Source: a bacterium (GTDB lineage: Bacteria; SZUA-182; DTGQ01). From it: a DNA stretch of 64,000 nucleotides. Every line of letters starts with the position of its first letter. Position 1 is the first letter of the stretch. The position numbers and the translations under genes were made by a program. The stretch is taken from the NCBI GenBank assembly GCA_023512255.1, contig JAILZY010000008.1, positions 3,508 through 67,507 of the forward strand. Reading direction: 5' to 3'. Positions 3,709-45,437 of the stretch are shown here, piece by piece. A model generated the notes under the pieces. That model did no database searches. It saw only the letters and a program-made list of their open reading frames with translations, and was not told the DNA's origin.

Positions 3709-4599
3709 TTAAACCTGAGTTCTTCGCCCAGTGATATAATTTTCTAGCATCTTGTTAACCCGCTCAAGCTCATTTGATTTTTCTTTGGTTTCCTTCAAAA
3801 GCTCTTCGATTCTTTGCTCGGCCAATTTCCTCTCAGTAATATCTTTGAAAACAAGGCCAATACCTATCGTCTCACCACGATCATTTTTAATGTGGGAGAA
3901 GGAGGCTAGGACAAATTTCTTTTCCTGATTCTTAGTAAGAATTTCAAATTCAAGGTCCCGTTTGGAGGTGTTGCTCTTTATCATCTCCTGAAACTTCTCC
4001 CCACCGCAGGAGTGGAACAGATCGCCAAGGTCGATGTTAGATAGCTCATCCCGCGAATAGCCAGTGATTTTTGAGGAGGCGGGATTTGCAGACAGAATCC
4101 GAGCTTCTGGGTCTAGTATAATGATCCCATCGAGTGAGGTTTCAAATAAATTTCGGTACCGCTCTTCGGACTCACGAAGTTGGCTCTCAAGCTTAGCCTT
4201 CTCCTGTTCAAAAAGCAACCGCTGTAAATTTTCCTTGATTACATAAGGAATCCGCTCAACATAGTTATCTTTCTTGATCACGTAATCAAAGGCTCCCTCC
4301 TTCATGATCTGGACAGCAATATCCTCACTTCCATGAGCAGTGATGACAATAACCGGCAAATCAGGCCGTATTTTCTTGAGGGAGCGCAGGACGCTCAACC
4401 CATCCATTTCCGGCAGGGAATAGTCAAGAAGAACGATATCAAACTCATTTTCGTTCTTAATCAGATCCAGGCATTCCTCACCAGAGGAAACATGGGTAAA
4501 GAAGTACTGTAAATTGCTTTTATCTAAAACACGCTTGATCAGCTTAGCCTGAATTAAATCATCTTCTACCAATAATAACCGGGGATTTTGAATTTGCAT
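3709..4599 (-). CDS. response regulator (receiver + PAS domain)
   Basis: Receiver motifs LLLVEDD...DIVLLDYSLPEMDG...K followed by a PAS-like region. Last gene of a three-gene two-component operon. Confidence 0.75.
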   Translation of the reverse strand: MQIQNPRLLLVEDDLIQAKLIKRVLDKSNLQYFFTHVSSGEECLDLIKNENEFDIVLLDYSLPEMDGLSVLRSLKKIRPDLPVIVITAHGSEDIAVQIMKEGAFDYVIKKDNYVERIPYVIKENLQRLLFEQEKAKLESQLRESEERYRNLFETSLDGIIILDPEARILSANPASSKITGYSRDELSNIDLGDLFHSCGGEKFQEMIKSNTSKRDLEFEILTKNQEKKFVLASFSHIKNDRGETIGIGLVFKDITERKLAEQRIEELLKETKEKSNELERVNKMLENYITGRRTQV

Positions 4600-4613
4600 A
4601 GCTTACTCTCCCT

Positions 4614-5054
4614 TCATCGGTAAAGTATCTCGTTAACCATCAGCCAATAGTGCTCGATAGAGCGGATCTTCTGATTAAATTCCTCATAATCTAATGGCTT
4701 GATAACATAGCTATTGGCATGATACTCATAGCATTTTTCCAGGTCGGCCCGATTGCTGGATGTGGTCAGGATAACTACAGGGATATGCTGCAGCTGCGGC
4801 GATTGCTTAATTCGGCGCAAGATTTCAAGCCCATTGATTTTTGGCAGATTGATATCCATAAGGATCAGATGAGGATAGACAAACTCTTCGCTCATCAATT
4901 CGCTCCTCTGATCCATATTCTGATTGAAAAGGTAATTAAACACTTCTTCTCCATCTCTGGCCACGATTAACTGATTATTAAATCCACTCTTTTTTAAAGC
5001 TCTTTCCACCAATTTAATATGAATTGGATCATCCTCAACCAATAGAATATTCAT
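4614..5054 (-). CDS. single-domain response regulator (receiver only)
   Basis: 146 aa. ILLVEDDPIH...LILMDINLPKINGLEILRRIK. Confidence 0.75.
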   Translation of the reverse strand: MNILLVEDDPIHIKLVERALKKSGFNNQLIVARDGEEVFNYLFNQNMDQRSELMSEEFVYPHLILMDINLPKINGLEILRRIKQSPQLQHIPVVILTTSSNRADLEKCYEYHANSYVIKPLDYEEFNQKIRSIEHYWLMVNEILYR

Positions 5055-5106
5055 GTGATTGTAGAATCCTATCCTTCAGGGCAATAATCTTATGATTGAT
5101 CAGCGA

Positions 5107-6201
5107 TTATCCTAACTTTTTTATAGGAATAGAAAAATAGAATGTCGAGCCCTGCCCCTTTTCAGATTCAACCCAGACCCGACCTTTGTGGCCTTCAATA
5201 ATCCTCTTAACAATGGTTAATCCGACTCCAGTGCTATTGGGATCTTTAACCTCGTTAAGGGTCTGAAAAATATCGAAAATCTTTTGGTGATATTTTCGCT
5301 CGATGCCGATTCCATTGTCTTGAACGAAGAAGACATGATAGTCGTCTTTGATCGTATGGCCAATGGCAATCCGTGGATGCTCGTTATGCTCACCCATGAA
5401 TTTGATAGCATTATTTAACAGATTGACCAGAGCGAGCACAATCATTTCCTTATCACAGAAAATAATCGGCATATCCTCGTCAATAATGAGCTGAATTCCT
5501 TTTTCTTTCAAAGGTAATTTAAGCTTATCAATCGCTTCCTGGATGATTTTTTTAGCAGGCACATCCTCTCTGCGATTTTGGCCCCTGCCGATGCGGGAAA
5601 GATCTAGCAGATCGCGCACGAGCAAGCCCAGCCGATTGACACTGTTTTTGATGTCCAGGAGGAATTCTCTCCCCTGCTCATCCAACCGATCAGAGTAATC
5701 CTCCAGCAGAGCCCCAGCCAGGCCTTGAAGCGAGACAAGGGGAGATTTAAGATCATGTGAGACGGTATAAACAAAGTTTTCCAATTCGGTATTTTTGAGC
5801 TTCAGCTCCATGTTTCTGACTCGTAACTCCTCTTCAAGATTCATCCTTTTGGTTACATTGCGGACCAGGCTGATAATTGAGCTGGTTTTCTGCTCCGCTT
5901 CTTTTGTCTTCGGATGAGCAGGTACTGAGGTTATTTCGAGCCAGTTGCCGTATTTGTCTTTTTTAACTTGTTGAAATGAGGATTTCCCCTTTTTAAAAAT
6001 CTGCTCAATTGGACAATTTCCCTCCTCGCAGGGACAGTCGCGGTCGAAAAAGATCTCAAAACAATGCTTGCCTACCTGATCTCCATAGATATCAAGGAGC
6101 GGCTGGTTAAGAAATTCTATTTCCCATCTCTCATTGTGGGCGATAACCCCATCTCCAATACTCAACAGTACGTTGCTTAAGTCATAGTTTTCTAAGTTCA
6201 T
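5107..6201 (-). CDS. sensor histidine kinase (PAS + HisKA + HATPase_c)
   Basis: H-box SHDLKSPL; C-terminal N/G1/G2 ATPase motifs (NLLNNAIKF, DNGIGI, GTGLGL). Confidence 0.8.
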   Translation of the reverse strand: MNLENYDLSNVLLSIGDGVIAHNERWEIEFLNQPLLDIYGDQVGKHCFEIFFDRDCPCEEGNCPIEQIFKKGKSSFQQVKKDKYGNWLEITSVPAHPKTKEAEQKTSSIISLVRNVTKRMNLEEELRVRNMELKLKNTELENFVYTVSHDLKSPLVSLQGLAGALLEDYSDRLDEQGREFLLDIKNSVNRLGLLVRDLLDLSRIGRGQNRREDVPAKKIIQEAIDKLKLPLKEKGIQLIIDEDMPIIFCDKEMIVLALVNLLNNAIKFMGEHNEHPRIAIGHTIKDDYHVFFVQDNGIGIERKYHQKIFDIFQTLNEVKDPNSTGVGLTIVKRIIEGHKGRVWVESEKGQGSTFYFSIPIKKLG

Positions 6202-6302: not shown

Positions 6303-6452
6303 TCGCTTCGCCATACATTCTGGGGCGGCCTTGCGCTGGTTCCGATAAGAAGCCCGTAGATTAACACTTCGCCATACATTCCGAGGGCGGCCTGCCGACA
6401 AGATATTTAGCGTGAAAAATCTGGACGCTTCGGCCTACATTCTGGGGCGGCC
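6303..6452. repeat. three degenerate 27-28 nt direct repeats (CGCTTCGCCATACATTCTGGGGCGGCC) separated by unique ~32-35 nt spacers; CRISPR-like geometry
   Basis: Seen directly. Copies begin at 6304, 6366 and 6426. Copies 2 and 3 carry 2-3 substitutions or an indel relative to copy 1. No cas genes in the window. Confidence 0.5.
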
Positions 6453-6626
6453 AAACAGAAGCTATCTTTGAAAGAGCTATCTTATCATCACGCTCTACTT
6501 CTTATTAAATAATATTATGCAAAGAAAGGGTAAAGTCAAATAAATAATTATAAATTTATCTTGTTATTGGCTTGATAAGCTTTTGGTGGTCTTCTCTAGG
6601 CTTCTCCCCGAGAAGAGTTACTTTCT

Positions 6627-7643
6627 TTAGCCACCAAATCGCCGTGGCTGAGTATAGCGATCAATAAAGAGAGCAACAACGTTCATGTGGAGAATAGCCG
6701 TGCACATTCCCTCGACCCTAGTTCCATAATTTCTCACGAAAAAGGTGAAAATGCCGATCCCGATACCATAGATGATTTTACCCCGTTTAGTCACCGGACT
6801 GGTAACCCAATCCGTAGCCATAAAAAAAGCTCCCAGAATTAGCCCCCCGGCCAGGATTTGAAAAATAGGATCCTTACCAAAACCAATCGATAGAAGGGCG
6901 GTGGTGATCAGGATACTGCCCGGAATATAGAGGTCGATATGCTTCTTGTAAAGGAGGTAGGCGGCGCCGAGCAGCAGAGCCAGGGATGATCCGCCGATAA
7001 CGCCTCCGATATTGCCAATCAGCAAACTCTCATATCCTGACAGAGTGCTGAAGACCGGCGAGCCTGCCCGAGCGATAGCCAAGGGAGTCGCGGCTGTAAT
7101 TCCATCTATCCTTTTCCTCGCCAGCAGATCAGTAACAATTACTCCGTTTTCGAAAAATTTAGTGGTCAAAAGCTGGGTAAAGGAATGAGATTTCCACCAC
7201 AGAGGTTTAATATATTCTTCCAACAGCGGATGCCAGACGGTAAAGACAAACAGAAAGGTTCGGGCAAACAGAGCAGGATTGAAGATATTTTTCCCCAATC
7301 CTCCAAAGAGCTCCTTGGCCACAGCAATAGCCACTATCCCGCCAAGGGCGGCCAGCCACCAGGGAGTGGTAGGTGGCAGAGAAAGGGCCAGCAGCAGCCC
7401 GGTAACCACAGCACTCCCATCGTTTAGGCTAAAAGGCCGGTCAAGAACGGCTCTGACAAAGAACTCGGTCAAAACAGTTGATAAGATGCAGACAGCAGTT
7501 ACAAATAAGGCATTAAAGCCAAAAAAATAGATGGCGACGAGCAAAGTAGGAACAAGAGCGATGATGACGTCGCGCATGGCTTCAGAAATACCTTCAGAAG
7601 TTTTTATATGCGGAGGGGGGCTGACTATTAATGATTCCTTCAT
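6627..7643 (-). CDS. rnfD: RnfD/NqrB-family membrane subunit with covalent FMN site
   Basis: Polytopic membrane protein with the FMN-attachment motif TAATPL. The start was moved to the ATG at 7643, immediately after the rnfC stop; the track ORF extends further upstream, overlapping rnfC. Confidence 0.8.
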   Translation of the reverse strand: MKESLIVSPPPHIKTSEGISEAMRDVIIALVPTLLVAIYFFGFNALFVTAVCILSTVLTEFFVRAVLDRPFSLNDGSAVVTGLLLALSLPPTTPWWLAALGGIVAIAVAKELFGGLGKNIFNPALFARTFLFVFTVWHPLLEEYIKPLWWKSHSFTQLLTTKFFENGVIVTDLLARKRIDGITAATPLAIARAGSPVFSTLSGYESLLIGNIGGVIGGSSLALLLGAAYLLYKKHIDLYIPGSILITTALLSIGFGKDPIFQILAGGLILGAFFMATDWVTSPVTKRGKIIYGIGIGIFTFFVRNYGTRVEGMCTAILHMNVVALFIDRYTQPRRFGG

Positions 7644-7648
7644 GGAAT

Positions 7649-8992
7649 TTAACCTCTCACCATTGGTTTTTTCTTTTGAGCCATAATTTGGGCCTTGGCT
7701 TTTCTGATAAACTGAATCATCGGTCTGCGGGAAGGGCAGACAAAGGCGCACGATCCACACTCCATGCAATCTAAAACTCCGCATTCGTCCGCCTCGCGGT
7801 AGCGTTCATTTTCTGAATAATACCCAATCAGGTTCGGTAACAGGAACATGGGGCAGATATCGGCACATTTTCCGCATTTCAGGCATGGCCAATATTTATT
7901 AGGATCAGGAACCATGTGCCGGGGAAAGACCACGATTCCAGAAGTTCCCTTGACAATAGGGATATCGAGGTTGGCGATGGCAAAACCAGTCATTGGTCCG
8001 CCGACCACTACTTTCCCAGGGGGGCCATCTTTCCATCCGCCGCAGAAAGAGATCAGGTGGCTGATTGGAGTTCCCAGTTTGGCCAGTATGTTTTGAGGAT
8101 TCTGAAGACCTGGCCCAGTTACAGTCAGCACCCTCTCAATTAGCGGCTTGCCGAACCTGATGGCCTCATAAATAGCCAAAATGGTTCCTACGTTTTGAAC
8201 CACGGCTCCGACCTCGCTGGGAAGTTTGCGCAAAGGGACCTCCCGATTCAACACGGCCTTGATAAGTTGCTTCTCGCACCCTTGTGGGTACTTAGTTTCC
8301 AAAGCAACTACTTGGATATTCTGAAAGCCAGATGCTTCGATGCACTTTTGAACGGCCTCAATAGCATTTGACTTGTTGATTTCTATGCCGATATAGGCAG
8401 TCTGGGCTTCGATGGTCCGCAAGACCAGACTGACCCCCTTGAGAAAATCCTCCGTTCGCTCAAGAAGGATACGATGGTCACAGGTAAGGAAAGATTCACA
8501 CTCGCAGCCATTGATAACCAGGCTGTCAATTCGTTTATCCTTCGGAGGGGAGAGTTTGATAAAGGTAGGAAAGGCAGCCCCTCCCATGCCCACAATGCCG
8601 GCCTCTTTAACCAGGGATTTGATCTTCTCAATCGGCTCAGCCTCAGGATTGGGTATCTCCTGTAAGGGTATCGATTCCTGATTTTTATCAGGAATGATGG
8701 TAATGCTCATCATCTCAGCGCCGGTGAAGTGGGGATGCGGAGCGATAGATTCAACGATACCAGAAACACTTGCATGAATTGGGGCAGAAATGAAAGCCTC
8801 GGCTTCGGCGATCTTCTCCCCAGCCTTAACTTTTTGGCCGACCTTTACCAGAGGCTTGCAGGGTGCACCAATATGCTGACTTAAGGGAAGAATAATTCGC
8901 TCGGGCAAAGGGGCTCTGACAATGGCTTTGTTTTCTGTTTCATGTTTGTGATGCGGAGGATGAATACCTCCTTGAAAGGATGACAGTCGCAT
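7649..8992 (-). CDS. rnfC: RnfC-family subunit (NADH-binding, two 4Fe-4S ferredoxin motifs)
   Basis: N-terminal GGIHPP...PL.QHIGAP..P.VKVGQKV; SLBB/NuoF-like GMGGAAFPT; two CxxCxxCxxxCP clusters. Confidence 0.85.
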   Translation of the reverse strand: MRLSSFQGGIHPPHHKHETENKAIVRAPLPERIILPLSQHIGAPCKPLVKVGQKVKAGEKIAEAEAFISAPIHASVSGIVESIAPHPHFTGAEMMSITIIPDKNQESIPLQEIPNPEAEPIEKIKSLVKEAGIVGMGGAAFPTFIKLSPPKDKRIDSLVINGCECESFLTCDHRILLERTEDFLKGVSLVLRTIEAQTAYIGIEINKSNAIEAVQKCIEASGFQNIQVVALETKYPQGCEKQLIKAVLNREVPLRKLPSEVGAVVQNVGTILAIYEAIRFGKPLIERVLTVTGPGLQNPQNILAKLGTPISHLISFCGGWKDGPPGKVVVGGPMTGFAIANLDIPIVKGTSGIVVFPRHMVPDPNKYWPCLKCGKCADICPMFLLPNLIGYYSENERYREADECGVLDCMECGSCAFVCPSRRPMIQFIRKAKAQIMAQKKKPMVRG

Positions 8993-9067
8993 ATTTTTCC
9001 CTAATTGGTTTATTGGTTTATTAATAATAAAGAAAAGGAAAAGGTATTATTGTTTTGTCAGCTTCAC

Positions 9068-9814
9068 TTAAGCTGATTCTTCAACAACCTGAGGTTCGAC
9101 ATTGAAAAGAATCAGCTTAAATAATGGCCATCCCTCCATACAGGCAATATAGGCATGAATTGTCGTGAAGATAACATAGAACCACATGATAGCCGCATGG
9201 ACTCCAGTAAAAAATTGTTCGGCCAACTCAACGGACCCAAAATATGTGGCTACACCTGCCAAGAGAAATTTAGGCCATAGGATCAAAAACCCGGTTATGC
9301 CCTGAACGATCAGCATGATCCAGAAAAGGTTATATGACAGTTTTTGCAATGAGGCATATTTAGCGATATGAGGATAGTGATCCTCAAGGAAAAGATAATA
9401 TTTCAAAACTGCCGGCGTGTTGAGAATGTCCTTTTTCCCAAAGGCAAAATCCTGATAGGTTTTTCCCTTCCCATAGAAGGCATACCAGAATCTAACCAGA
9501 AAATTAACCAGTATAACTACCATCAAGCAATAGTGATGGATTTTCATCTGCATATGCTGCGGCTTTAGCCAGTCAAACCGCAAACATAGACCGGTAAAGG
9601 TGAGCCCCACGATGCATACAAGATGGATCCAGTGCATGAGCCTGATTGGCGCCTCGATATATTCAGTCTCTGTTATTGGTTTAAAATTCCCCTTAAGAAA
9701 ACGGTTTTGAAAGCGACCACTAAGGATATTGCCCAAGAAGTGAAGAAGAATGACAAGCAGTGAGAAAATATAGAGAGGAACTGCCACCCGATCAATGATA
9801 GGATATGCCACCAT
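9068..9814 (-). CDS. di-heme b-type cytochrome membrane subunit (Ni/Fe-hydrogenase / formate dehydrogenase gamma type)
   Basis: About 5 TM helices. Conserved His in TM segments (LLHFLGN, RLMHWIHLV..GLTFTGL, KIHHY, HAAIMW...HAYIA), as in HyaC/FdnI-type cytochrome b. Immediately upstream of rnfC in the same orientation. Confidence 0.5.
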   Translation of the reverse strand: MVAYPIIDRVAVPLYIFSLLVILLHFLGNILSGRFQNRFLKGNFKPITETEYIEAPIRLMHWIHLVCIVGLTFTGLCLRFDWLKPQHMQMKIHHYCLMVVILVNFLVRFWYAFYGKGKTYQDFAFGKKDILNTPAVLKYYLFLEDHYPHIAKYASLQKLSYNLFWIMLIVQGITGFLILWPKFLLAGVATYFGSVELAEQFFTGVHAAIMWFYVIFTTIHAYIACMEGWPLFKLILFNVEPQVVEESA

Positions 9815-10325
9815 GCCTCTTATACCTCCGAAAGTTTATCGTTTTTTTGATTTTAAATTTTTACCCATTATCACAAAAAAATAAGGGTAAGGCACAAAAT
9901 CCGTAAGGGTCGCTCGAGGCTATTAGATTTCTAAGGGGTGATAAACCGGAAGATGCCTTTTCATCTATAGCATAGAGATATTTTTGCTGTCAAGGGTAAA
10001 AAGTCAGTCTAAATGAGGGGAGGAGAATAAAATCTCAAAAAGGCACAATAAAATCTCTAAGAGAGCGAAAAGTGCGGGGAGTGGGGGGAAAATGGTAAGA
10101 GTCGCTTGAGGTTAATTGAAAAATAGTTTTGAAAAGTCGGCCATCCTCTGTCTGTCTCCATTTCTTTTTTCCGAAGCATACTTGCCAAGATCTCGATAAA
10201 ATCAGAGGAAATATTTACTGTATTTTAACTGCTTTTTAACTTTATTTTATCTCATTTTTTACGCTTTTGCCTTTACCATTTGTCGCTGCTTTCAACTTTA
10301 TTCACAAGATTAGGAGGCTACCCCG

Positions 10326-17012: not shown

Positions 17013-17270
17013 GCCAATAGTGGCGATGGTAGGTTGGAGGCTTTTATTCACCCTCACTAACACTAAAGCCTTCCCATCAAGGGGTAGGATGGGTATGAGG
17101 TTTGCCAATAAAAAATAGGGAACATTTAAAAAAATGACCATTTTGATTTGACAGCCTGATTTCAGGCTAGTTATACTTAATAATAAAGACTTTACTTATT
17201 ATATATTCATATTTTTGCATATTTATACTACTTTCTGTATATTTATACTATCTCTTATTAAAATTCGCTC

Positions 17271-37009: not shown

Positions 37010-38653
37010 TCAGGTCATCTCTCCTAGCCAGAGCTCAAGCTTTTGGGGTGATTTTTTAAGTTTTTTGTTTTCTGCCGGCTTCTTTTCAGGCTGGGTGGTG
37101 TTTTCCCTATCTCTGCTGCCGTCATCATCTTTGACCTCTTCCTGTGTTTTCCCCTGACTGTTAGTGTTCTGGTTATTGTCTGTCCCTTCTGGTAACTTTT
37201 TATTCGGCCGCGGCCCCCTGCCTTGATGATTTTGGCTATCTTGATGATTCTGAGGACTTGGGCTATGTTCTTTATCCGTAATAATAGACTGTCCGGCAGT
37301 AACCAGCCGTGGAGTGAGGAGGACAACCAGCTCCTTCCTCTGGTTTTGGGTCGAGGATTTGGAAAAGAAAAGAGCCCCTAGGATTGGGATTTTTCCCAGC
37401 AGAGGGAGCCGCTCTCGAGCCTTTATCTCTGAATTGCGGATCAGTCCGCCGATAAAAACAGTCTCTCCTGCCTTAACCATAATCGAGGTGGTAACTGAGG
37501 TAGTAGTCTTTTGCGGCAATCCGCTACTTAGAGACCCGTCGCTTACCTCAGGGTGGATATCCATCAGGATGTTGCCATCTTCAGTTATATGGGGAGTCAA
37601 CTGGAGTTGAATACCGATATCCAGAAATTCAACGCTTTGCAGGGTACTGGTTTGGGTCGAGGTGGTTAGATAGTAGCCCAATTTGCCACCGATGAGAATC
37701 TGGGCCGGCTTTCCATCAAGGACCATGATGCGCGGCTTGGCCAGGGTTTTTACATTACCTTTTTTTTCTAGGGCATTCAGTTTGAGATAGAAATGGGGCC
37801 GGCTGATGCCAAAGAAGAATTGCGGAGAAGAATCTCCAGGTCGAGGTGGAGGAGAAAGCCACGATCCGGGCGAGTTGATCCTGCCCTCGGTATTTTCCCC
37901 CTGAGAGAAGGTAGCGCCCCAGTCGATCCCATAGGCCAGATCATCACTGAGGTTAATTTCCAGGATTTGGGCTTCGATTAGAGCCTGTTTGGGAGGAATA
38001 TCTAGCGACTGGATCAGGCGCTGGGCAGCTTTAAGTTCTTTCTCGGTGCCGTCAACCAGGAGCATTCCTTCCTGGGGATAGGCGCTGATTCTGGCCTGCT
38101 CCAAAGACCATTGAATCACCTTGGATAATTCCTTAAGATCAGCATAATTGATCCGAAAAACTCTGACTGATTTGGAAGCCTCTCTCTCCCCCTGGGGCTC
38201 TTCCTTCTGCTTGCTATTATTTTGAACATCCTGCTGGCTGCTACGGCTAGCCTTCTCTTGAGCTGCTTGCCCACCACTTCCACCCTCAGGGCTGAGAATA
38301 TACACTGAGCCCTCCTTGGTCCAGGTCAGTCCCATAATCCTGGCAATAGCCGTCAGGGTATCCTCAAGGCTTGCCCGTTTAAGATTCAAGCTAATTCGGC
38401 CGCTAACCTCAGGAGTGCTAATGATGTTAACATTATGCTTTATGGCCAGGGCCTTGAGCAAGGTATTGATATCCATATCCCGGATGTAGAGGGAAGATGA
38501 CTCTCCTCCATCGTCCGTGCCTTTTCCCTGCGGGGTTAAAGGTAGGCCTTCTTCAGCCTTGCTTGATCTGGTTACTATCATTAGAAAAAGACCAATGGTA
38601 AGCAGAATAAGACCTATGGTTCGTTTATTCATATCTGGCGATCGTGGACTCAT
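37010..38653 (-). CDS. pilQ: type IV pilus secretin
   Basis: Signal peptide, N0/secretin domains, C-terminal secretin motif (VLLTPRLV). Last gene of the pilMNOPQ run. Confidence 0.8.
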   Translation of the reverse strand: MSPRSPDMNKRTIGLILLTIGLFLMIVTRSSKAEEGLPLTPQGKGTDDGGESSSLYIRDMDINTLLKALAIKHNVNIISTPEVSGRISLNLKRASLEDTLTAIARIMGLTWTKEGSVYILSPEGGSGGQAAQEKASRSSQQDVQNNSKQKEEPQGEREASKSVRVFRINYADLKELSKVIQWSLEQARISAYPQEGMLLVDGTEKELKAAQRLIQSLDIPPKQALIEAQILEINLSDDLAYGIDWGATFSQGENTEGRINSPGSWLSPPPRPGDSSPQFFFGISRPHFYLKLNALEKKGNVKTLAKPRIMVLDGKPAQILIGGKLGYYLTTSTQTSTLQSVEFLDIGIQLQLTPHITEDGNILMDIHPEVSDGSLSSGLPQKTTTSVTTSIMVKAGETVFIGGLIRNSEIKARERLPLLGKIPILGALFFSKSSTQNQRKELVVLLTPRLVTAGQSIITDKEHSPSPQNHQDSQNHQGRGPRPNKKLPEGTDNNQNTNSQGKTQEEVKDDDGSRDRENTTQPEKKPAENKKLKKSPQKLELWLGEMT

Positions 38654-39252
38654 TCTTCCTCCTGATCGAGGGTCAGGATAATGTCCCGGCCGTTTTTTGA
38701 AAGCACTACCTCCTTGTCCCTTACCTCACGTAGTTGATAGCCCATTATGCTTTGGCCTGGCATCATGGGCTGATCGTTAATTACGGCCATTGGGGTTCCT
38801 CCGGTTAGGGTAGCCTCCAGTTTAAGTCTGGGGGGCTGTGGCCAGCTCAGGGCAGGCTCTTCGCTGTTTCGCTGCTTATTATTCTTTAGCGGGCCATCAC
38901 TTCTGGTGGCCGTAGCTGCTGCGGACTGCTGTCTATAGCTACTTGAGGATTGAAATTTGAAAATATCACGCTCAACCCTATCTGGCCATTCCTGATTAGC
39001 TTTAAGTATTTGGTCCAAGGGTGGGATAGAAAGCTCCTCGCTGATGATTCGGCTGATCTCAGAAAGCGACGCCCTGGCCCCTTTTGGCCCATCGGAGAAG
39101 GTTGCAGATTGGGTTTGCCTGTCCTGCTGAAGCTGCGTTTTCCAGGAAGCGACAATTCCTTTGATTTTCCCGTTAAAGAGCAGGACCACGAGCAAGATGG
39201 CCGTCAGGATAGTTAGCTTGATCCTGTCTGATTTTGATATTTTTGTGTCCAT
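38650..39252 (-). CDS. PilP-like pilus assembly protein
   Basis: Assigned by position between pilO and pilQ; N-terminal TM/lipoprotein-like segment. No strong motif. Confidence 0.4.
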   Translation of the reverse strand: MDTKISKSDRIKLTILTAILLVVLLFNGKIKGIVASWKTQLQQDRQTQSATFSDGPKGARASLSEISRIISEELSIPPLDQILKANQEWPDRVERDIFKFQSSSSYRQQSAAATATRSDGPLKNNKQRNSEEPALSWPQPPRLKLEATLTGGTPMAVINDQPMMPGQSIMGYQLREVRDKEVVLSKNGRDIILTLDQEEE

Positions 39253-39396
39253 GAGCTGAGATTTCTCCTTGTCTTTTCTGCTTCTTAGCCTTTTATTTTT
39301 TTAGCCTTTCACTTTATCTTTTACTTACCCTATATCTTTATATTTCATCTTATCTCTATATCTATCTCATCTCATAATCTCATTTTTCACTTCTCT

Positions 39397-40113
39397 TTAC
39401 CTCCCCTCTTCTACCTCATTAGATGAGGGCAGGGTGAGAAGATCAAATCGAACCTCTTCCAGGTATTTCTCCCCCGCCACCGGGGGCCGAGTATCATGGG
39501 CGGCAGGCAGGGAGAGTTCGGTAGAGTCGGTTTGGCTTATTATGGGTGGGAGAGCCTCGGTCTGCTGTAGCTGGTCAGGTTGAATTTGTGGCCGCGACTT
39601 AGTTTCTGTAGGTTGAGTAGGTTGAGATGCATCGGGTTGGGCTTCGATTTTAAGGGAATTTGCCTTCAGGCCAGGAGTAGATTTTTCAAACTTGGCCAGG
39701 AAGCGATAGAATGAGGGAAAATCGCCGCTTAGCCTGATTAGGAGTGAATTTTGCTGGCTCTGGCCAGCTTCTGGTTTTCCTTCAGGCTGCACTAGAGCAA
39801 CGGCAAGGCCGGCTTCTTCAGCTAGTCGGCTTAAGGTTTGCATCAGGTCCCAGAGGTGATCAGAGCAAGAGAATCTGGCCTCAAGTAATTTAATTTCCTG
39901 ACTGAGGCTAGCTTTTATCTGATTTAGCTGGTTCAACTTCGATTCCATGATTTCTGTCGAGGGACCAGCGCTCAGTGAAATCTCTTTGATCTCAGAGCGT
40001 AACCCACCGAGTTTGGCATTTATCGGCCTCTGAAACAGGAAGACATAGCCGATAATTATGAGCGCTCCTGTGGCGGCAAAGATAATATCAATCTGGCGTT
40101 GATTCAGTTGCAT
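39397..40113 (-). CDS. pilO: PilO-like pilus assembly protein
   Basis: Single N-terminal TM segment, coiled coil, position after pilN. Confidence 0.5.
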   Translation of the reverse strand: MQLNQRQIDIIFAATGALIIIGYVFLFQRPINAKLGGLRSEIKEISLSAGPSTEIMESKLNQLNQIKASLSQEIKLLEARFSCSDHLWDLMQTLSRLAEEAGLAVALVQPEGKPEAGQSQQNSLLIRLSGDFPSFYRFLAKFEKSTPGLKANSLKIEAQPDASQPTQPTETKSRPQIQPDQLQQTEALPPIISQTDSTELSLPAAHDTRPPVAGEKYLEEVRFDLLTLPSSNEVEEGR

Positions 40114-40747
40114 GGTATGCGCCTTTTTGGTAAAAAACTTTTTCAGCCCCTGCTTGGTTTTGTCCTGCCTGCTGCTTATAGATTAAGGCTATCTCGAAGC
40201 TGATCGAAGGGCTCTCCTGCTCATGGCCATCCGATCTGATCAGCCTGATTTGCTGAAAGGATTGGTTTTGCTGAAGATTTAGGAGAAAGGTGCTAAGGTT
40301 CTGGTAAGATCGGCTTATGCCAGATAATTTAAGGCTATAGTAATCTTGAATCTCTTTTTGTGGTGTGCTGACCATTTCTCTTTCGATTTGGAGGCTAGAG
40401 AGTCTGGTATGCGGATCGAGAGCCTCGGCTAGATTGAACAGAACCGGCGCAAGGCACTGGTTTTGTGATCTGCCGAGCAGGACCTGTCGCTTTTGTAAGA
40501 GCTCTTTGACCTCTTGATAGGCCAGAAGCAGCCTGCTCTCTATCTGCTTGGTCTGGCGAGTGCGTCGGCGAAGCGTATCGGCCTGGCTCTCTAGCCTCTT
40601 TAGATAGCCATAAAAAGATGTTCCCAGAAGACAGAAGCAGATAATCTGGCAAAGAAGCAGGATCGACCACTTCCTAATCCTTTGCCGGATCATTCTTTGG
40701 GTGAGGATCTCAGTTGGAATTAGGTTAATTTCATGAAAGCCGGGCAT
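40088..40747 (-). CDS. pilN: PilN-like pilus assembly protein
   Basis: N-terminal INLIP motif, TM segment, coiled coil. Confidence 0.6.
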   Translation of the reverse strand: MPGFHEINLIPTEILTQRMIRQRIRKWSILLLCQIICFCLLGTSFYGYLKRLESQADTLRRRTRQTKQIESRLLLAYQEVKELLQKRQVLLGRSQNQCLAPVLFNLAEALDPHTRLSSLQIEREMVSTPQKEIQDYYSLKLSGISRSYQNLSTFLLNLQQNQSFQQIRLIRSDGHEQESPSISFEIALIYKQQAGQNQAGAEKVFYQKGAYHATESTPD

Positions 40748-41876
40748 GGGTCAAAAGGTCCTCGTGAAGGATGAGCGGCTGGCTGGGCACACCCTCCCTG
40801 ATGCCGCGCAGGGCAAGGCCCAGAGCGACATCGAAAAAGGTGTTAGAGTAAGTTGATTCTCCGATTGGTGCTATGCTAGGTAAGGCCATGACCTGAATTC
40901 CGGTCCTCTGGTGAATAAATCGGTCTAAGAAGCGGATTTTGGCTCCCTCACCGAGCAGGATTGCTCGGTCAATTACCCGCTGTTGGATGAGGGAAACACA
41001 ATATGAGAGGACTTTTTGGATTTCCTGGCAGAGTTCTTCCAGAATCGGACTGAGTACCTCATAGATCACCTGGCCAAGCTCACCTTCATCTAAAAAGGAG
41101 CCGGTGGCTCTCCCCCGGTCTAACCTAGTCGACTTTCCCGGATCTACTCCAATTGTGTGGAGAATTCGATCCACTTTTTCCCCAGTCAGTCCCAATATTT
41201 TTCCCATTCGTGCTCTGATAGCACCTGTCCCCCAGGCTATCTCCCGTACCACCAAAATCTGCTCATCTACCACTGTTAGGAACATGGTACAGTTTTCTTC
41301 TACAGATAAGATGAACTGATCCGGCAGGCGCTCTCCCTGCCGGGCCCATTTGACTGCTCGAAACAGCGCACAGTAGCGGGGTTCGATGACCGAAGGATCA
41401 AGCCCCACCTCTCTTAGCAGATCGAGGCAGCTTATTATATCCTCCCTTCTGCTGGCTATCAGCAGGGCGGCTTTTGCTGACCTTTGCTCACTGAGGGGAA
41501 GATTGAGGTAATCAATAACCCCCTTCTCAAGGGGAAAAGAAAGGTAGTTGTTGGCTTCCCGAAGAATAGCCTGATCCATATCCTCCCCTTCCTTGAGCGA
41601 GAATCGAATCGGGATAGTGGTAACCATATGATTCGGCAAGGCAGCGATAGTCTGCTTTCCTTTAAATTTCCCTTTGGCTAAAAGCTTTCTCAGCGCGCTG
41701 CTAAGCCCTGCCCCATCTTGGCCGCCAATTTTCTCAGCCGGTGGGGCAACTTCAGCCTGGGCAGCCTCCTGGATTGAGAGAGTCCCTTTTTGCCATTTTA
41801 GTTGCAGAAGTTTTATTCTGTCTGGGACAATGTCAAGGCCGATGGCTGAATAGGTAGCTCTTGCGCCTATCATCAA
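40731..41876 (-). CDS. pilM: type IV pilus assembly ATPase-like protein PilM (actin fold)
   Basis: SAIGLDIVPDRIKLLQL N-terminus and FtsA/actin-like fold motifs. Confidence 0.75.
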   Translation of the reverse strand: MMIGARATYSAIGLDIVPDRIKLLQLKWQKGTLSIQEAAQAEVAPPAEKIGGQDGAGLSSALRKLLAKGKFKGKQTIAALPNHMVTTIPIRFSLKEGEDMDQAILREANNYLSFPLEKGVIDYLNLPLSEQRSAKAALLIASRREDIISCLDLLREVGLDPSVIEPRYCALFRAVKWARQGERLPDQFILSVEENCTMFLTVVDEQILVVREIAWGTGAIRARMGKILGLTGEKVDRILHTIGVDPGKSTRLDRGRATGSFLDEGELGQVIYEVLSPILEELCQEIQKVLSYCVSLIQQRVIDRAILLGEGAKIRFLDRFIHQRTGIQVMALPSIAPIGESTYSNTFFDVALGLALRGIREGVPSQPLILHEDLLTHARLS

Positions 41877-42847
41877 GGCCTCCTTGAGTCTAGGTAGTAG
41901 ATGACTAATTTGGGCCGAAGGGTAGGGTTGTCCGAATAGCTGCTGCTGCGGAATTTATATTCATTATTTCCTGCCCGGATATCTGTCTCCAAGATAAGGC
42001 CATAGTTTTGGGCTGGATATTTCAGCCAGAAGCGAACCAGGTTTGTGGTTCGCCACCTTTGCCAGCCTAGAGTAGTAAAGATTTTGCTATCTTCATAGCT
42101 TGGATCGAAAGCACCGCCAGGGGCTGACCAGGCAAGGTGCAGATTTTTATTTCGTTCTTTCCAGGTTGTTGCAGAGGGCAGCCAATCTTGGATAATCCGG
42201 TGAATCCGATAGATATCAGGGATAAAACCTTCCTTTGGTATCTGATAAAGATACATTGAGAAAAAGCTTGACACGATCTTGGCATCAGGCGGGAGTGAGC
42301 ATTTGCTGAAGTTGAACCGAGCCAGGGTGCGACATCTTTTCCCCCCACCTTCCTCGCTGTCTAGGAGGAGCTCACTCTTGTCGTCAAAAACAGTATCCGG
42401 CTCCCCCTTTTTAATGTAGGTATCAGCCTCTTTAGTATCGCTGGTATAGGGCGGCTGGATCACCAGCCAATGAACGGTTCTGCGGGCGCTGGATTTGGCC
42501 CCGCCAACCACAGACTGGCTGTCGATCACTATTTTTCGCCCAAGCGTATCCTCGGAAAAAGAAACCGTGTAGGAGCCGTCCCCCAAGGGAAGATCAGCCA
42601 TTTGTACTCTCCAGTCCGGGTTATTCTCAAGCCGCCACAGCCCATGAGCAAGGCCAGCTTCGGCCAAATACCGAGCCTTCAATTTCTGGATTCGGTTGAA
42701 GGCCGCTTTTGTCTGAACGCCCCTAGTTTGGGCTAGAAAAAAGCAGATAAGCTCAAGGATAAGAACAGTGGTCATGACCATGACCAGAGCAAAGCCGGAT
42801 TGATTTTTTAATCTTGATTCACGGACAAAGAGGTTTTCTTTCCTCAC
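41873..42847 (-). CDS. PilX-like pilus assembly protein (PilX_N-type N-terminus)
   Basis: N-terminal SGFALVMVMTTVLILE hydrophobic segment typical of the PilX_N domain. Confidence 0.45.
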   Translation of the reverse strand: MRKENLFVRESRLKNQSGFALVMVMTTVLILELICFFLAQTRGVQTKAAFNRIQKLKARYLAEAGLAHGLWRLENNPDWRVQMADLPLGDGSYTVSFSEDTLGRKIVIDSQSVVGGAKSSARRTVHWLVIQPPYTSDTKEADTYIKKGEPDTVFDDKSELLLDSEEGGGKRCRTLARFNFSKCSLPPDAKIVSSFFSMYLYQIPKEGFIPDIYRIHRIIQDWLPSATTWKERNKNLHLAWSAPGGAFDPSYEDSKIFTTLGWQRWRTTNLVRFWLKYPAQNYGLILETDIRAGNNEYKFRSSSYSDNPTLRPKLVIYYLDSRRP

Positions 42848-43710
42848 CTGCCGATACCCTTGAGATAGATGCTGGCTCTCATAACGACCTCCTCCCCATC
42901 GGGAGTTAATACCCCGAGGACCAGGCTGAAACCAGAAGCGCCGCTGCCTGATTCCGCGCGGGTAACCTGAAAGGTGTTTACTCGCTCCAGGATAATCTCA
43001 GGCTGTCCGCCAGTATAATACCTTTCCGTTAAATTCCCGTTGGGATCAAGATAATAGACCCAATACTCAACCGGATCCTCATCAATCAGGCCATCCTCAT
43101 CATCATCTTTGAAATCACCTTCATCAATTAACCCATCGCCATCATCATCCTTACCAGCTATCCCTGGATAACCGTCATTGTTTATATCTGCGCGCCAATC
43201 CTCATCAATGAAGCCATCGCCGTCATTGTCCAATCCATCTATCCAATCCTCATCTACCCGCAGCCAACACATAAGCCAAAATCCATCCTCATCATCGTCC
43301 CTGGCAGTAGTCTCATCAATGCGGCCATCAGCATCATCGTCGATGCCCAAAATTCCCGCTGCGCCATCAGCAGTAATCTCCACCCCTGGATCCTCATCGA
43401 TTAGGTCATCTCCATCGGTGTCGATCATAGCTGAAAAGGCCAATACCTGCTGAGGCTGATTTGAGCCTACACTCTTTAGCGGCAGCAGGATGCGGTTTGA
43501 TGATCTTGCCCGACTCAAGATATGGTCCATCGCCCAGCAGACACTGTGCATGGCTTCACTTTGATGCCGGCTGTAATCCCATGATTCTAAGGCTGTGGCC
43601 AGAACCCTTGAAGTTACCCCGGCCAGAAGCGACATAATGCTCATGGCCACAAGCAGCTCAAGCAAGGTCAGACCGGCATTTTTTTCCCACCTGCGCACCT
43701 GGCGACACAT
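42844..43710 (-). CDS. prepilin-type minor pilin with Asp-rich calcium-binding-like repeats (PilW/PilY1-like)
   Basis: Prepilin N-terminal motif GLTLLELLVAMSI, followed by about 7 DxDxDGxIDED repeats. Confidence 0.6.
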   Translation of the reverse strand: MCRQVRRWEKNAGLTLLELLVAMSIMSLLAGVTSRVLATALESWDYSRHQSEAMHSVCWAMDHILSRARSSNRILLPLKSVGSNQPQQVLAFSAMIDTDGDDLIDEDPGVEITADGAAGILGIDDDADGRIDETTARDDDEDGFWLMCWLRVDEDWIDGLDNDGDGFIDEDWRADINNDGYPGIAGKDDDGDGLIDEGDFKDDDEDGLIDEDPVEYWVYYLDPNGNLTERYYTGGQPEIILERVNTFQVTRAESGSGASGFSLVLGVLTPDGEEVVMRASIYLKGIGR

Positions 43711-43720
43711 AATTAAAGCC

Positions 43721-44098
43721 TTAGAGCGCCCTAAATCTTAGGGTCTCAAGCTGGATATCTCCTGCCTTGAGCCGGATATACTTTAAGTCTGGCTCCCCAA
43801 TCGAGTCTCCATCTCCATCATAGAGGGAAACCGTTACCTGCCAGGGGATATTCACCCCCAAAATCTCAGTGCCGCTGGCATTGGCCATAAGATCAAACTC
43901 CTGGGCTAGGATCTCCTCCATCTTAGCCTGGGCAAGATAGCATTGGCTAGCGAGCCGCTGGCCATCAAAGCCGATATTCAGGCTCCCAGAAAGGCTCTGA
44001 GCTATTGGGATCATAGCCAGGGAGAGAATGGTCATGGCCAAAACCACCTCAAGGAGTGAAAACCCCTGCTGATGCTGATATAGATACTGGTTGTTCAT
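43721..44098 (-). CDS. prepilin-type minor pilin (PilV-like)
   Basis: GFSLLEVVLAMTILSL class III signal-peptide motif. Confidence 0.6.
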   Translation of the reverse strand: MNNQYLYQHQQGFSLLEVVLAMTILSLAMIPIAQSLSGSLNIGFDGQRLASQCYLAQAKMEEILAQEFDLMANASGTEILGVNIPWQVTVSLYDGDGDSIGEPDLKYIRLKAGDIQLETLRFRAL

Positions 44099-44199
44099 CT
44101 TATGAATATCATCATAATAAATATCAATAACATCAATAAGATCATAAGCATCAATAATGTTTATAAATAATGCCTAGCATAATTGTATATTGCCTGGGG

Positions 44200-44778: not shown

Positions 44779-44821
44779 TACTTGTATGCATTAAATAAGG
44801 GTTACACCCTTACACCCACTC

Positions 44822-45337: not shown

Positions 45338-45437
45338 AGTATCTTCTCCTTAAAAATTAATTTGACAGGTTTTATCGAATCATTTTTCTATGCCTTGACT
45401 TTTCTCTTAATCCAGCAAGCTAAATATCACCCCCTTG

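What the first reader, a model, noticed from the sequence alone, without database searches (positions are those of the whole stretch)
6627..9814. Minimal cytochrome b - RnfC - RnfD operon without rnfG/E/A/B
The three genes are contiguous and co-oriented (cyt b 9814-9068; rnfC 8992-7649; rnfD 7643-6627, whose start abuts the rnfC stop). They end at a 220-bp spacer, with no rnfGEAB or nqr partners. RnfC supplies NADH/FMN/FeS; RnfD supplies covalent FMN in the membrane; a di-heme cytochrome b typically exchanges electrons with quinone. This combination suggests an undescribed compact NADH (or ferredoxin):quinone oxidoreductase, rather than a canonical Rnf or Nqr complex.
Basis: partly seen in the sequence, partly recalled or inferred. 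Interest (0 to 1): 0.55.

Follow-up and report, generated by a model that had tools for sequence, protein, structure and literature searches.

The report
Cytochrome b–RnfC–RnfD half-Rnf module
Three adjacent genes join the NADH-handling half of the Rnf respiratory complex (RnfC and RnfD) to a two-haem membrane cytochrome b, and this trio is conserved across an uncultured bacterial lineage, so it probably forms a compact, undescribed link between NADH and the membrane quinone pool.

Summary
On the minus strand lie a Ni_hydr_CYTB-family cytochrome b (9814-9068), a full-length rnfC (8992-7649) and rnfD (7643-6627, 5 nt after the rnfC stop). No RnfA/E/G/B or Nqr homologue occurs in the 64-kb window. 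One detail is wrong: the downstream spacer is 425 bp, not 220.

The trio is not chance. rnfC follows the cytochrome b in 19 of 20 related loci with at least 50% identical cytochrome b, down to about 50% protein identity. None has rnfGEAB within 8-10 kb. All three genes are under purifying selection.

All cofactor motifs are intact:
- four haem-ligand histidines in the HyaC/FdnI pattern;
- the RnfC NADH/FMN domain and two 4Fe-4S motifs;
- the RnfD flavinylation threonine, invariant in the clade.

More distant relatives of the cytochrome b sit next to periplasmic multihaem cytochromes c or [NiFe] hydrogenase. The RnfD nearest the trio clade lies in rnfC-rnfD-fdnG-fdnH, also without rnfGEAB. RnfCD therefore looks like a portable NAD(H)-linked transmembrane wire.

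Best reading (about 0.5): an NADH:menaquinone oxidoreductase. Whole genomes could not be checked for rnfGEAB elsewhere. Novelty: a new variant of known partial-Rnf systems.

The parts
9964..9993 (-). Putative sigma-70-type promoter of the trio: TTGACA, 18 nt, TATAGA, about 150 nt upstream of the cytochrome b start codon
   Evidence: The block TTGACAG.AAAAATA....ATGCTATA.A is conserved in the window, L005, L001 and L007, inside otherwise diverged intergenic DNA. The simple scan did not report it because the -10 hexamer ends in A. Promoter function is inferred, not shown.
9068..9814 (-). Dihaem cytochrome b of the HyaC/FdnI type (248 aa). It has an extra N-terminal transmembrane helix (residues 3-31) followed by the four-helix core
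   Evidence: Pfam PF01292, E=5e-21. TIGR02125, the hydrogenase cytochrome b model, scores 69 bits, below its 121.5 cut-off. H61, H94, H206 and H220 are invariant. The only PDB sequence hit is E. coli HyaC 4gd3, E=7e-4, and the four histidines align. The AF2 model has pLDDT 82.7 and five long helices. The best Foldseek PDB hit is 4gd3_A, probability 1.00, E=0.033. Between strains there are 10 synonymous and 0 nonsynonymous differences.
9155..9634 (-). Span holding the four predicted haem-ligand histidine codons: H61 (9634-9632), H94 (9535-9533), H206 (9199-9197), H220 (9157-9155)
   Evidence: These columns are invariant in A1. They align with the corresponding HyaC histidines (RIWHW, LIHF, SWHRL, GHVY). 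Assigning H61/H220 to the cytoplasmic-side haem and H94/H206 to the periplasmic-side haem is an inference from FdnI/HyaC topology (own knowledge).
7649..8992 (-). rnfC (447 aa): NADH/FMN-binding subunit with two [4Fe-4S] clusters
   Evidence: TIGR01945, 529 bits. Pfam RnfC_N, Complex1_51K (positions 1-150 of 150), SLBB and Fer4. It aligns over residues 1-437 to C. tetanomorphum RnfC 7zc6_C, E=1e-129. The motifs CLKCGKCADICP (7888-7853) and CMECGSCAFVCP (7768-7733), and GMGGAAFP, are read directly from the translation.
6627..7643 (-). rnfD (338 aa): polytopic membrane subunit carrying covalent FMN and riboflavin
   Evidence: TIGR01946, 295 bits. PDB RnfD 9eri_D E=3e-69 and 7zc6_D E=2e-66. The flavinylation motif is D180-G-I-T-A-A-T186 (codon 7088-7086). 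D180, A185 and T186 are conserved in 33 of 33 trio-clade sequences. It lacks the NqrB-type N-terminal extension: the alignment to NqrB starts at NqrB residue 148.
6511..6539 (-). Conserved sigma-70-like promoter (TTGACT, 16-17 nt, TAATAT) downstream of rnfD, presumably for the kinase/regulator operon
   Evidence: Found by the scan. It is conserved in the window, L024, L005 and L001, although the surrounding spacer has diverged.
6304..6452 (-). Three 27-nt direct repeats at an exact 61-nt period, lying between that promoter and the kinase gene. Probably not part of the respiratory module
   Evidence: The sequences between the repeats differ between strains. No Rfam match.
3709..6201 (-). Conserved neighbours: PAS-histidine kinase (6201-5107), stand-alone receiver (5054-4614) and receiver-PAS protein (4599-3709). 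Candidate regulators of the trio
   Evidence: Pfam. The same three genes follow rnfD in L001, L003, L005, L009, L033 and L034, partly in L007, L008, L010 and L012, and precede the cytochrome b in L011. Three cysteines in the kinase PAS domain are conserved. The regulatory link is inferred from synteny only.

Best explanation
The three genes encode one membrane complex: half of an Rnf complex, in which a cytochrome b replaces RnfG, RnfE, RnfA and RnfB.

Proposed path:
1. RnfC oxidises NADH in the cytoplasm on its FMN and passes the electrons through its two [4Fe-4S] clusters.
2. RnfD carries them across the membrane, from its riboflavin on the cytoplasmic side to its covalently bound FMN (on T186) on the periplasmic side.
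3. There, the outer haem of the HyaC/FdnI-type cytochrome b takes the electrons, in place of RnfG's FMN.
4. The inner haem brings them back to a menaquinone site on the cytoplasmic side.

The net reaction is NADH:menaquinone oxidoreduction along an out-and-back path like that of Na+-NQR. RnfCD acts here as a portable NAD(H)-linked transmembrane wire.

Shown: gene content, conservation of the trio, intact cofactor motifs, and absence of the other rnf genes nearby.

Inferred: the physical complex, quinone as partner, the direction of flow, and whether any ion is pumped. Since the RnfA/E/G core is missing, I expect little or no pumping.
For: - **Conserved, coupled gene order.** rnfC follows the cytochrome b directly in 19 of 20 loci whose cytochrome b is at least 50% identical. 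rnfD follows rnfC wherever the contig continues, with two exceptions: it is absent from the locus in L011 and is separated by an inserted toxin-antitoxin pair in L013. Identity falls to about 50% across the set. The rnfC-rnfD gap is 5 nt.
- **Purifying selection.** Between strains, pN/pS is 0 for the cytochrome b, 0.10 for rnfC and 0.08 for rnfD.
- **One RnfD clade.** Trio RnfDs form a single clade nested within canonical RnfD.
- **Cofactor sites kept.** These are the four haem histidines, the RnfC NuoF-like domain with two 4Fe-4S motifs, and T186 of RnfD in 33 of 33 sequences.
- **No rnfA/E/G/B nearby.** None occurs in the window or in any trio locus, and the positive control works.
- **Relatives of the cytochrome b are quinone-pool anchors that serve a periplasmic partner.** That partner is a multihaem cytochrome c at 47-49% and 35% identity (L039, L040, L030) and [NiFe] hydrogenase at about 30% (L015). 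The Q of the HyaC 'NPxxQ' loop aligns with invariant Q157.
- **A second RnfCD-only arrangement.** L029, next to the trio clade in the tree, has rnfC-rnfD-fdnG(Sec, Tat signal)-fdnH and lacks both fdnI and rnfGEAB. RnfCD can therefore serve a periplasmic partner directly.
- **Published structures fit.** They place the FMN of RnfD at the periplasmic face and the riboflavin towards RnfC. The NQR quinone site is built by NqrB N-terminal helices that RnfD lacks (PMC12174285). A separate quinone-binding subunit is therefore needed.
Against: - No direct evidence shows that the three proteins interact. No complex model could be made or inspected with these tools.
- Whole MAGs could not be searched, so rnfGEAB, nuo, nqr, apbE and menaquinone synthesis genes remain unknown.
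- Trio RnfD differs from canonical RnfD at only about six clade-specific positions. That is also what one would expect if it still worked inside a full Rnf complex.
- In one MAG rnfD has moved away from cytb-rnfC (L011/L020). In L014 the cytochrome b has no rnfC downstream. The linkage is therefore not absolute.
- Structural similarity of the cytochrome b model to HyaC is modest (TM 0.41/0.54, E=0.033).
- With NADH as donor, electrons would run through RnfD in the direction that, in canonical Rnf, consumes the ion gradient.
Confidence: 0.5

Rival explanations
1. The cytochrome b is a hub or adaptor for a periplasmic low-potential dehydrogenase encoded elsewhere, such as a [NiFe] hydrogenase or a formate dehydrogenase. 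Electrons would flow inward from the periplasm through the outer haem and the RnfD FMN to RnfC, reducing NAD+. This would be an energy-conserving redox loop (H2 or formate to NAD+), with quinone as at most a side branch.
For: - PF01292 cytochromes b are the docking anchors of periplasmic hydrogenase and FDH-N (L015; PDB hit HyaC).
- L029 links RnfCD directly to a Tat-exported, selenocysteine-containing FdnG plus FdnH.
- A preprint names such an 'FdhAH-RnfCD' complex (bioRxiv 10.1101/2025.07.15.664484).
Against: - No hydrogenase or FDH gene lies in the 64-kb window or next to any trio locus.
- The cytochrome b keeps the conserved cytoplasmic loop and the Q157 position that align with the HyaC quinone-side loop. 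This argues that quinone chemistry is retained.
Confidence: 0.2
2. It is a split canonical Rnf. rnfG, E, A and B lie elsewhere in the genome, and the six subunits still assemble into a ferredoxin:NAD+ oxidoreductase. The cytochrome b would be an accessory output subunit, analogous to the multihaem cytochrome c added to Rnf in Methanosarcina.
For: - Trio RnfC and RnfD are close to canonical ones: 44-50% identity to RnfD of full operons, with only about six clade-specific substitutions.
- Rnf complexes with an extra cytochrome subunit are known (PMC12174285).
- Whole genomes could not be searched.
Against: - Every canonical relative examined keeps rnfCDGEAB contiguous (L021, L022, L023, L028).
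- None of about 13 trio loci with flanks has any of the four missing genes within 8-10 kb.
- Where rnfD moved (L020), it moved alone.
- The neighbouring lineage L029 also lacks them.
Confidence: 0.15
3. It is a decaying remnant of an rnf operon that happens to lie next to an unrelated cytochrome b, with no joint function.
For: Only the incompleteness of the operon.
Against: - The order is conserved down to about 50% identity.
- pN/pS is 0-0.10.
- The ORFs are intact and all cofactor motifs are present.
- A promoter block is conserved upstream of the cytochrome b.
Confidence: 0.03

Closest known systems
Rnf complex (RnfABCDGE, ferredoxin:NAD+ oxidoreductase; structures 7zc6, 9eri, 8ahx)
   Same: RnfC and RnfD are ordinary members of their subunit families. 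They align full-length to solved RnfC and RnfD, and keep the NADH/FMN domain, two 4Fe-4S motifs and the flavinylation threonine.
   Different: RnfG, RnfE, RnfA and RnfB are not encoded nearby in any of the loci. These subunits form the ferredoxin side and the proposed ion-coupling core. A dihaem cytochrome b is encoded in their place.
Na+-NQR (NqrABCDEF)
   Same: The proposed overall reaction (NADH to quinone) is the same. So is the proposed out-and-back electron path using the NqrB/RnfD flavins (PMC12174285).
   Different: - There are no NqrC-F subunits.
- The NqrA homologue here is a cofactor-bearing RnfC.
- RnfD lacks the N-terminal helices of NqrB that form the quinone site.
- Quinone binding would be provided by a cytochrome b, which NQR does not have.
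Nqr/Rnf-like two-subunit system (Méheust et al. 2021, PMC8238504; PMC10979944)
   Same: It is also a partial Rnf/Nqr, which keeps only one of the two transmembrane paths and uses NAD(P)H as the cytoplasmic substrate.
   Different: That system is an RnfD-like domain fused to an NqrF-type NAD-binding domain, plus an RnfG-like FMN protein, and its RnfD-like part has lost the flavinylation threonine. Here RnfC is a separate, canonical subunit, the threonine is kept, and the partner is a cytochrome b.
FdhAH-RnfCD (named in bioRxiv 10.1101/2025.07.15.664484; example found here: L029)
   Same: RnfC and RnfD occur without rnfGEAB and are coupled to another redox module. The L029 RnfD is the nearest neighbour of the trio clade in the tree.
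   Different: The partner there is a Tat-exported selenocysteine formate dehydrogenase with its FeS subunit, and there is no cytochrome b.
HyaC/HydC/FdnI membrane anchors and Cbc-type bc cytochromes (CbcBA, CbcL of Geobacter)
   Same: The cytochrome b belongs to the same Pfam family, with a four-helix dihaem core and the four histidines. Its nearest non-trio relatives sit next to multihaem cytochromes c, as in Cbc clusters.
   Different: No hydrogenase, FDH or cytochrome c partner is encoded beside it. It has an extra N-terminal helix carrying the near-invariant motif HFLGN..GRF..RF. It scores below the equivalog cut-offs for hydrogenase and FDH cytochromes b.

Membership tests
Canonical Rnf complex (RnfABCDGE) | RnfC subunit with NuoF-like NADH/FMN domain and two [4Fe-4S] clusters | tested here: met
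   TIGR01945 scores 529 bits against a cut-off of 246. The Complex1_51K match covers positions 1-150 of 150. There are two CxxCxxCxxxCP motifs. The protein aligns full-length to 7zc6_C.
Canonical Rnf complex (RnfABCDGE) | RnfD subunit with the ApbE flavinylation motif (D..[ST][GA]AT) | tested here: met
   TIGR01946 scores 295 bits against a cut-off of 207. The motif reads DGITAAT186, and T186 is conserved in 33 of 33 clade members.
Canonical Rnf complex (RnfABCDGE) | RnfA and RnfE (PF02508), RnfG (FMN_bind) and RnfB encoded with C and D | tested here: not met
   tblastn with RsxA/B/G/E finds nothing in the 64-kb window or in any trio locus with 8-10 kb flanks. The same queries detect these genes in L028. 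Whether they occur elsewhere in the genomes could not be tested with these tools.
Na+-NQR | NqrA without cofactors, NqrB with an N-terminal quinone-site extension, and NqrC-F present | tested here: not met
   NqrA models score 25-58 bits against cut-offs of 321-505, and NqrB models 108-144 bits against 350-792. The alignment to NqrB starts at NqrB residue 148. There are no NqrC-F genes.
Ni_hydr_CYTB dihaem cytochrome b (HyaC/FdnI type) | Four-helix core with four conserved haem-ligand histidines, two of them 14 residues apart in the last helix | tested here: met
   PF01292 scores 75.7 bits against a cut-off of 30.1. H61, H94, H206 and H220 are invariant and align to the HyaC histidines. The AF2 helices are consistent with this. 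Haem binding itself was not tested.
Ni_hydr_CYTB dihaem cytochrome b (HyaC/FdnI type) | Encoded with its periplasmic hydrogenase or formate dehydrogenase partner (equivalog level) | tested here: not met
   TIGR02125 scores 69 bits against a cut-off of 121.5, and TIGR01583 scores 16.8 against 115.85. There are no hydrogenase or FDH genes in the window.
Nqr/Rnf-like two-subunit system (PMC8238504) | RnfD-like domain fused to a PF00175 NAD-binding domain, an adjacent FMN_bind protein, and loss of the flavinylation threonine in the RnfD-like part | tested here: not met
   RnfD here is a stand-alone 338-aa protein with only PF03116. There is no FMN_bind gene. T186 is present.
Respiratory NADH:quinone oxidoreductase (functional class) | NADH oxidation coupled to quinone reduction by one membrane complex | not testable with these tools
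   This needs biochemistry or at least a cofactor-containing complex model. Only the gene context and the contexts of homologues support it.

The most novel reading that the evidence does not exclude
RnfCD is a portable, NAD(H)-linked transmembrane electron wire that evolution has plugged into different partners. With a HyaC-type cytochrome b it forms a further class of respiratory NADH:quinone oxidoreductase, beside complex I, NDH-2 and Na+-NQR. With FdnGH it forms a periplasmic formate:NAD+ oxidoreductase. The cytochrome b version might also show how an Rnf-type machine can be rewired towards quinone.
Probability: 0.4. Interest if true: 0.75.

Novelty: new variant of a known kind. Interest (0 to 1): 0.6.

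Why it matters
Few enzyme types are known to feed NADH electrons into quinone pools: complex I, NDH-2 and Na+-NQR. A three-subunit enzyme built from half of Rnf and a dihaem cytochrome b would add another.

It would also show that the RnfC-RnfD pair works as an independent module, which bears on two questions:
- Where ion coupling resides in Rnf and NQR. If the trio pumps without RnfA/E/G, RnfD must hold the ion path. If it does not pump, that supports the RnfA/E-centred models.
- How Rnf-type complexes can be rewired towards quinone.

In practice, automatic annotation labels these genes 'RnfABCDGE subunit C/D'. Metabolic reconstructions of these uncultured sediment and spring lineages would then wrongly infer a ferredoxin:NAD+ Rnf complex.

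Tried and rejected
- **Futalosine (menaquinone) pathway next to the trio.** I suspected this from the Amidohydro, PNP_UDP_1, AIRS and radical-SAM Pfam labels. NCBIfam instead gives purine-nucleoside phosphorylase, TRZ/ATZ-type deaminases and ThiL, so I rejected it.
- **A trio-specific insertion in RnfD.** The roughly 33-residue insertion before the flavinylation site is also present in canonical RnfD (P0051, P0053, E. coli RsxD, A. vinelandii 8ahx). Rejected.
- **Taxonomy.** All carriers are labelled only 'bacterium', or loosely 'Deltaproteobacteria' or 'Pseudomonadota bacterium'. EF-G falls from 64-99% identity within the lineage to about 60% against Nitrospinota, Syntrophorhabdaceae, NC10 and Thermodesulfobacteriota. 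This points to a deep unclassified lineage, and no phylum name could be assigned.
- **Complex modelling.** No multimer prediction is offered, and model coordinates are not exposed. I therefore did not attempt a fused-chain model.
- **Repeat array in the spacer.** It has no Rfam match. Three inter-repeat sequences have no exact match in viral contigs.
- **Literature.** Searches for rnfCD, 'RnfC and RnfD', and Rnf plus cytochrome b found no description of this trio.


Full report
**1. The observation**

- *Cytochrome b, 9814-9068 (248 aa).* It matches Pfam PF01292 (Ni_hydr_CYTB) at E=5e-21.
- *rnfC, 8992-7649 (447 aa).* It scores 529 bits on TIGR01945 and carries RnfC_N, the NuoF-like Complex1_51K domain, SLBB and a dicluster ferredoxin domain.
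- *rnfD, 7643-6627 (338 aa).* The mechanical ORF reaches back to 7784. The ATG at 7643 is preceded by GAGAGG and gives the N-terminus shared by homologues and by solved RnfD structures. rnfD therefore starts 5 nt after the rnfC stop.

tblastn with E. coli RsxA, B, G and E finds nothing in the whole window. The same queries readily find these genes in a canonical operon (L028).

One stated detail is wrong. The spacer to the next gene is 425 bp, not 220 bp.

**2. The trio is not chance and not decay**

The cytochrome b belongs to a small subfamily.
- A word-indexed search of 5.8 billion proteins returned 23 clusters.
- An exhaustive profile search of 1.84 billion representatives gave only 32 hits at E<=1e-30.

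I fetched the genomic context of these proteins from species-representative genomes, metagenomes and assemblies.
- rnfC lies directly downstream of the cytochrome b in 19 of 20 loci whose cytochrome b is at least 50% identical and which have downstream sequence.
- rnfD follows rnfC wherever the contig continues.
- Protein identities fall to about 50-55% across these loci. EF-G identity falls in step, to 64-69%. The arrangement is therefore old and vertically kept in an unclassified lineage.

The exceptions are informative rather than damaging.
- In one MAG, cytb-rnfC remain together and rnfD sits alone on another contig (L011/L020).
- In L013 a DUF433/PIN toxin-antitoxin pair is inserted between rnfC and rnfD.
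- In L014 the cytochrome b is followed by unrelated genes.

Against a 97%-identical strain, the counts are as follows:

| Gene | Synonymous differences | Nonsynonymous differences | pN/pS |
|---|---|---|---|
| cytochrome b | 10 | 0 | 0 |
| rnfC | 24.5 | 8.5 | 0.10 |
| rnfD | 13 | 3 | 0.08 |

None of the trio loci has an RnfA/E/G/B homologue within the 8-10 kb flanks.

A promoter-like block, TTGACA-18 nt-TATAGA (9993-9964), is conserved upstream of the cytochrome b in four species, although the rest of the intergenic region has diverged.

**3. The parts**

*Cytochrome b.*
- Twenty-one homologues share invariant H61, H94, H206 and H220. The last two are 14 residues apart in one helix.
- The only solved relative by sequence is E. 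coli hydrogenase-1 cytochrome b (HyaC, 4gd3; E=7e-4). All four histidines and Q157 align to HyaC residues.
- An AF2 model (pLDDT 82.7) has five long helices. These are the four-helix core plus an extra N-terminal helix with a near-invariant HFLGN..GRF..RF motif.
- The best PDB fold match is again HyaC, and it is modest.

*RnfC.* It aligns end to end with C. tetanomorphum and A. woodii RnfC (E=1e-130 and 1e-118) and keeps GMGGAAFP and both CxxCxxCxxxCP motifs.

*RnfD.*
- It aligns with the three solved RnfDs.
- The flavinylation motif D-G-I-T-A-A-T186 is present, and D180, A185 and T186 are invariant in all 33 clade members.
- Only about six positions separate the trio clade from canonical RnfD.
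- RnfD lacks the N-terminal helices with which NqrB forms the NQR quinone site (PMC12174285).

**4. Relatives**

*RnfD tree.* In a neighbour-joining tree of 127 RnfDs, the trio sequences form one clade nested among canonical RnfDs. RnfDs of 44-50% identity sit in ordinary rnfCDGEAB operons (L021, L022, L023, L028).

*The sequence next to the trio clade (L029).*
- It lies in a different RnfCD-only cluster: rnfC-rnfD-fdnG-fdnH.
- fdnG has a Tat signal (SRRTFLK) and an in-frame TGA at the selenocysteine position.
- FdnH has a C-terminal membrane helix.
- There is no fdnI cytochrome b and no rnfGEAB.
- A 2025 preprint names such an 'FdhAH-RnfCD complex' in passing.

*Cytochrome b relatives outside the trio.*

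| Identity to the window cytochrome b | Loci | Neighbouring partner |
|---|---|---|
| 47-49% | L039, L040 | 254-aa multihaem cytochrome c immediately upstream |
| 35% | L030 | NapC/NirT-like and other multihaem cytochromes c |
| about 30% | L015 | third gene of a [NiFe] hydrogenase operon |

In all of these, the cytochrome b is the membrane anchor that connects a periplasmic redox partner to the quinone pool. Established examples are HyaC/HydC, FdnI and the Geobacter Cbc cytochromes (own knowledge).

**5. Mechanism**

Published Rnf structures give the following path (PMC12174285): NAD(H), RnfC FMN, two [4Fe-4S] clusters, RnfD riboflavin on the cytoplasmic side, covalent RnfD FMN on the periplasmic side, then RnfG FMN.

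In the trio the first half of this path is intact and everything after the RnfD FMN is missing. The one extra protein is a cytochrome b of a type whose outer haem normally accepts electrons at the periplasmic face.

The simplest reading is that the outer haem (H94/H206) replaces RnfG as partner of the RnfD FMN. The inner haem (H61/H220) would then deliver electrons to menaquinone at a cytoplasmic-side site. That site would be formed by the highly conserved loop 118-158 (NTPxVLKYYL, AKYASLQK), as in FdnI/HyaC.

The net reaction would be NADH:menaquinone oxidoreduction along an out-and-back path like that of NQR.

The gene-level facts are shown. The contact, the quinone and the direction are inferred. 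With RnfA/E/G absent, I expect weak or no ion pumping, but this is open. I put this model at about 0.5.

**6. Rivals**

- *(a) Relay for a periplasmic dehydrogenase, about 0.2.* The cytochrome b relays electrons from a periplasmic hydrogenase or FDH encoded elsewhere into RnfCD and NAD+. L029 makes this credible. No such partner gene lies near any trio.
Against it, canonical relatives keep six contiguous genes, and rnfD moved alone in L020.
- *(c) A remnant, about 0.03.* Conservation and purifying selection exclude this.

**7. Comparison and novelty**

RnfC and RnfD are true members of their subunit families. The system fails the membership tests for:
- a canonical Rnf (four subunits are missing locally);
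- Na+-NQR;
- the published two-subunit Nqr/Rnf-like system, which has an RnfD-NqrF fusion, an RnfG-like partner and no flavinylation threonine.

I found no paper describing a cytochrome b-RnfC-RnfD unit. Partial Rnf/Nqr modules and an FdhAH-RnfCD arrangement are already in the literature. I therefore rate this a new variant of a known kind, not a new category.

Interest is 0.6. It is a well-conserved, testable candidate for a further type of NADH:quinone oxidoreductase. It is also a natural experiment on which Rnf/NQR subunits carry ion coupling. All functional claims are still inference.

**8. Surroundings**

- The trio is followed in most species by a PAS histidine kinase with three conserved cysteines, a stand-alone receiver and a receiver-PAS protein. 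These lie behind their own conserved promoter (6539-6511) and may regulate the trio.
- Between that promoter and the kinase, this species carries three 27-nt repeats at a 61-nt period, with strain-variable sequences between them.
- The rest of the window holds housekeeping genes, a strain-specific PglZ/SNF2/methylase island and a type II secretion/type IV pilus-like cluster. It holds no other respiratory genes.

Noticed in passing
window 6304-6452 (minus strand), between rnfD and the histidine kinase gene: Three 27-nt direct repeats (GGCCGCCCCAGAATGTAKGSCGAAGCG) lie at an exact 61-nt period. In 97%-identical strains (L024-L026) the repeats are kept, one roughly 34-nt inter-repeat sequence is replaced, and the shared one is shifted by one slot. 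This resembles spacer turnover in a mini-CRISPR array. No cas genes were seen, there is no Rfam match, and there are no exact matches in viral contigs. Sister species L005 and L001 lack the array.
   Followed up: partly
L029 3628-9912 (JGI 3300025471, Ga0209508_1000041): This is a second kind of RnfCD-only cluster: rnfC-rnfD-fdnG-fdnH. fdnG has a Tat signal and an in-frame TGA for selenocysteine, and fdnH has a C-terminal membrane helix. There is no fdnI cytochrome b and no rnfGEAB. Its RnfD keeps the flavinylation threonine. It suggests a periplasmic formate:NAD+ oxidoreductase.
   Followed up: partly
window 3709-6201 (minus strand): A PAS-histidine kinase, a stand-alone receiver and a receiver-PAS protein are syntenic with the trio in most species. 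The kinase PAS domain has three conserved cysteines, HC..(10-11)..C..(3-5)..C, and may be a redox or metal sensor. Neither regulator has a recognisable DNA-binding output domain.
   Followed up: partly
window 17020 to about 29130: Synteny with the 97%-identical strain contigs L024 and L026 stops at 17019. Beyond it lies a region with GC 0.55-0.61, against about 0.45 in the flanks. It encodes a PglZ-domain protein, an SNF2/ResIII helicase and two N6/N4 DNA methylases, one of which carries an IS200-like Y1 transposase domain. This looks like a strain-specific BREX-like defence island.
   Followed up: partly
L039 2562-4105; L040 1463-2976; L030 1703-5415: The closest cytochrome b relatives outside the trio (47-49% and 35% identity, with the same extra N-terminal helix) are paired with multihaem cytochromes c, like Geobacter Cbc-type quinol:cytochrome c modules.
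   Followed up: partly
L011 9920-12054 and L020 6001-7020 (same MAG, JBLIRR01); L013 7801-8479: These are rearranged versions of the trio. In one MAG, cytb-rnfC is followed by an IclR-family regulator and rnfD stands alone on another contig, between biotin-synthesis genes and FTCD_C/FolD-type folate genes. In L013 a DUF433/DUF5615-PIN toxin-antitoxin pair is inserted between rnfC and rnfD.
   Followed up: partly
window 37010-48285 (minus strand): A type II secretion/type IV pilus-like cluster: secretin, PilM/PilN/T2SSM-like proteins, prepilin-type N-methylation proteins, GspH, and the GspF and GspE ATPase. It appears unrelated to the finding.
   Followed up: no
L004 6782-8642: A 45%-identical cytochrome b that lacks the N-terminal helix follows tatA, tatC and a 71-aa ORF with no Pfam match. 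There is no rnfC or rnfD. Its partner is unknown.
   Followed up: no
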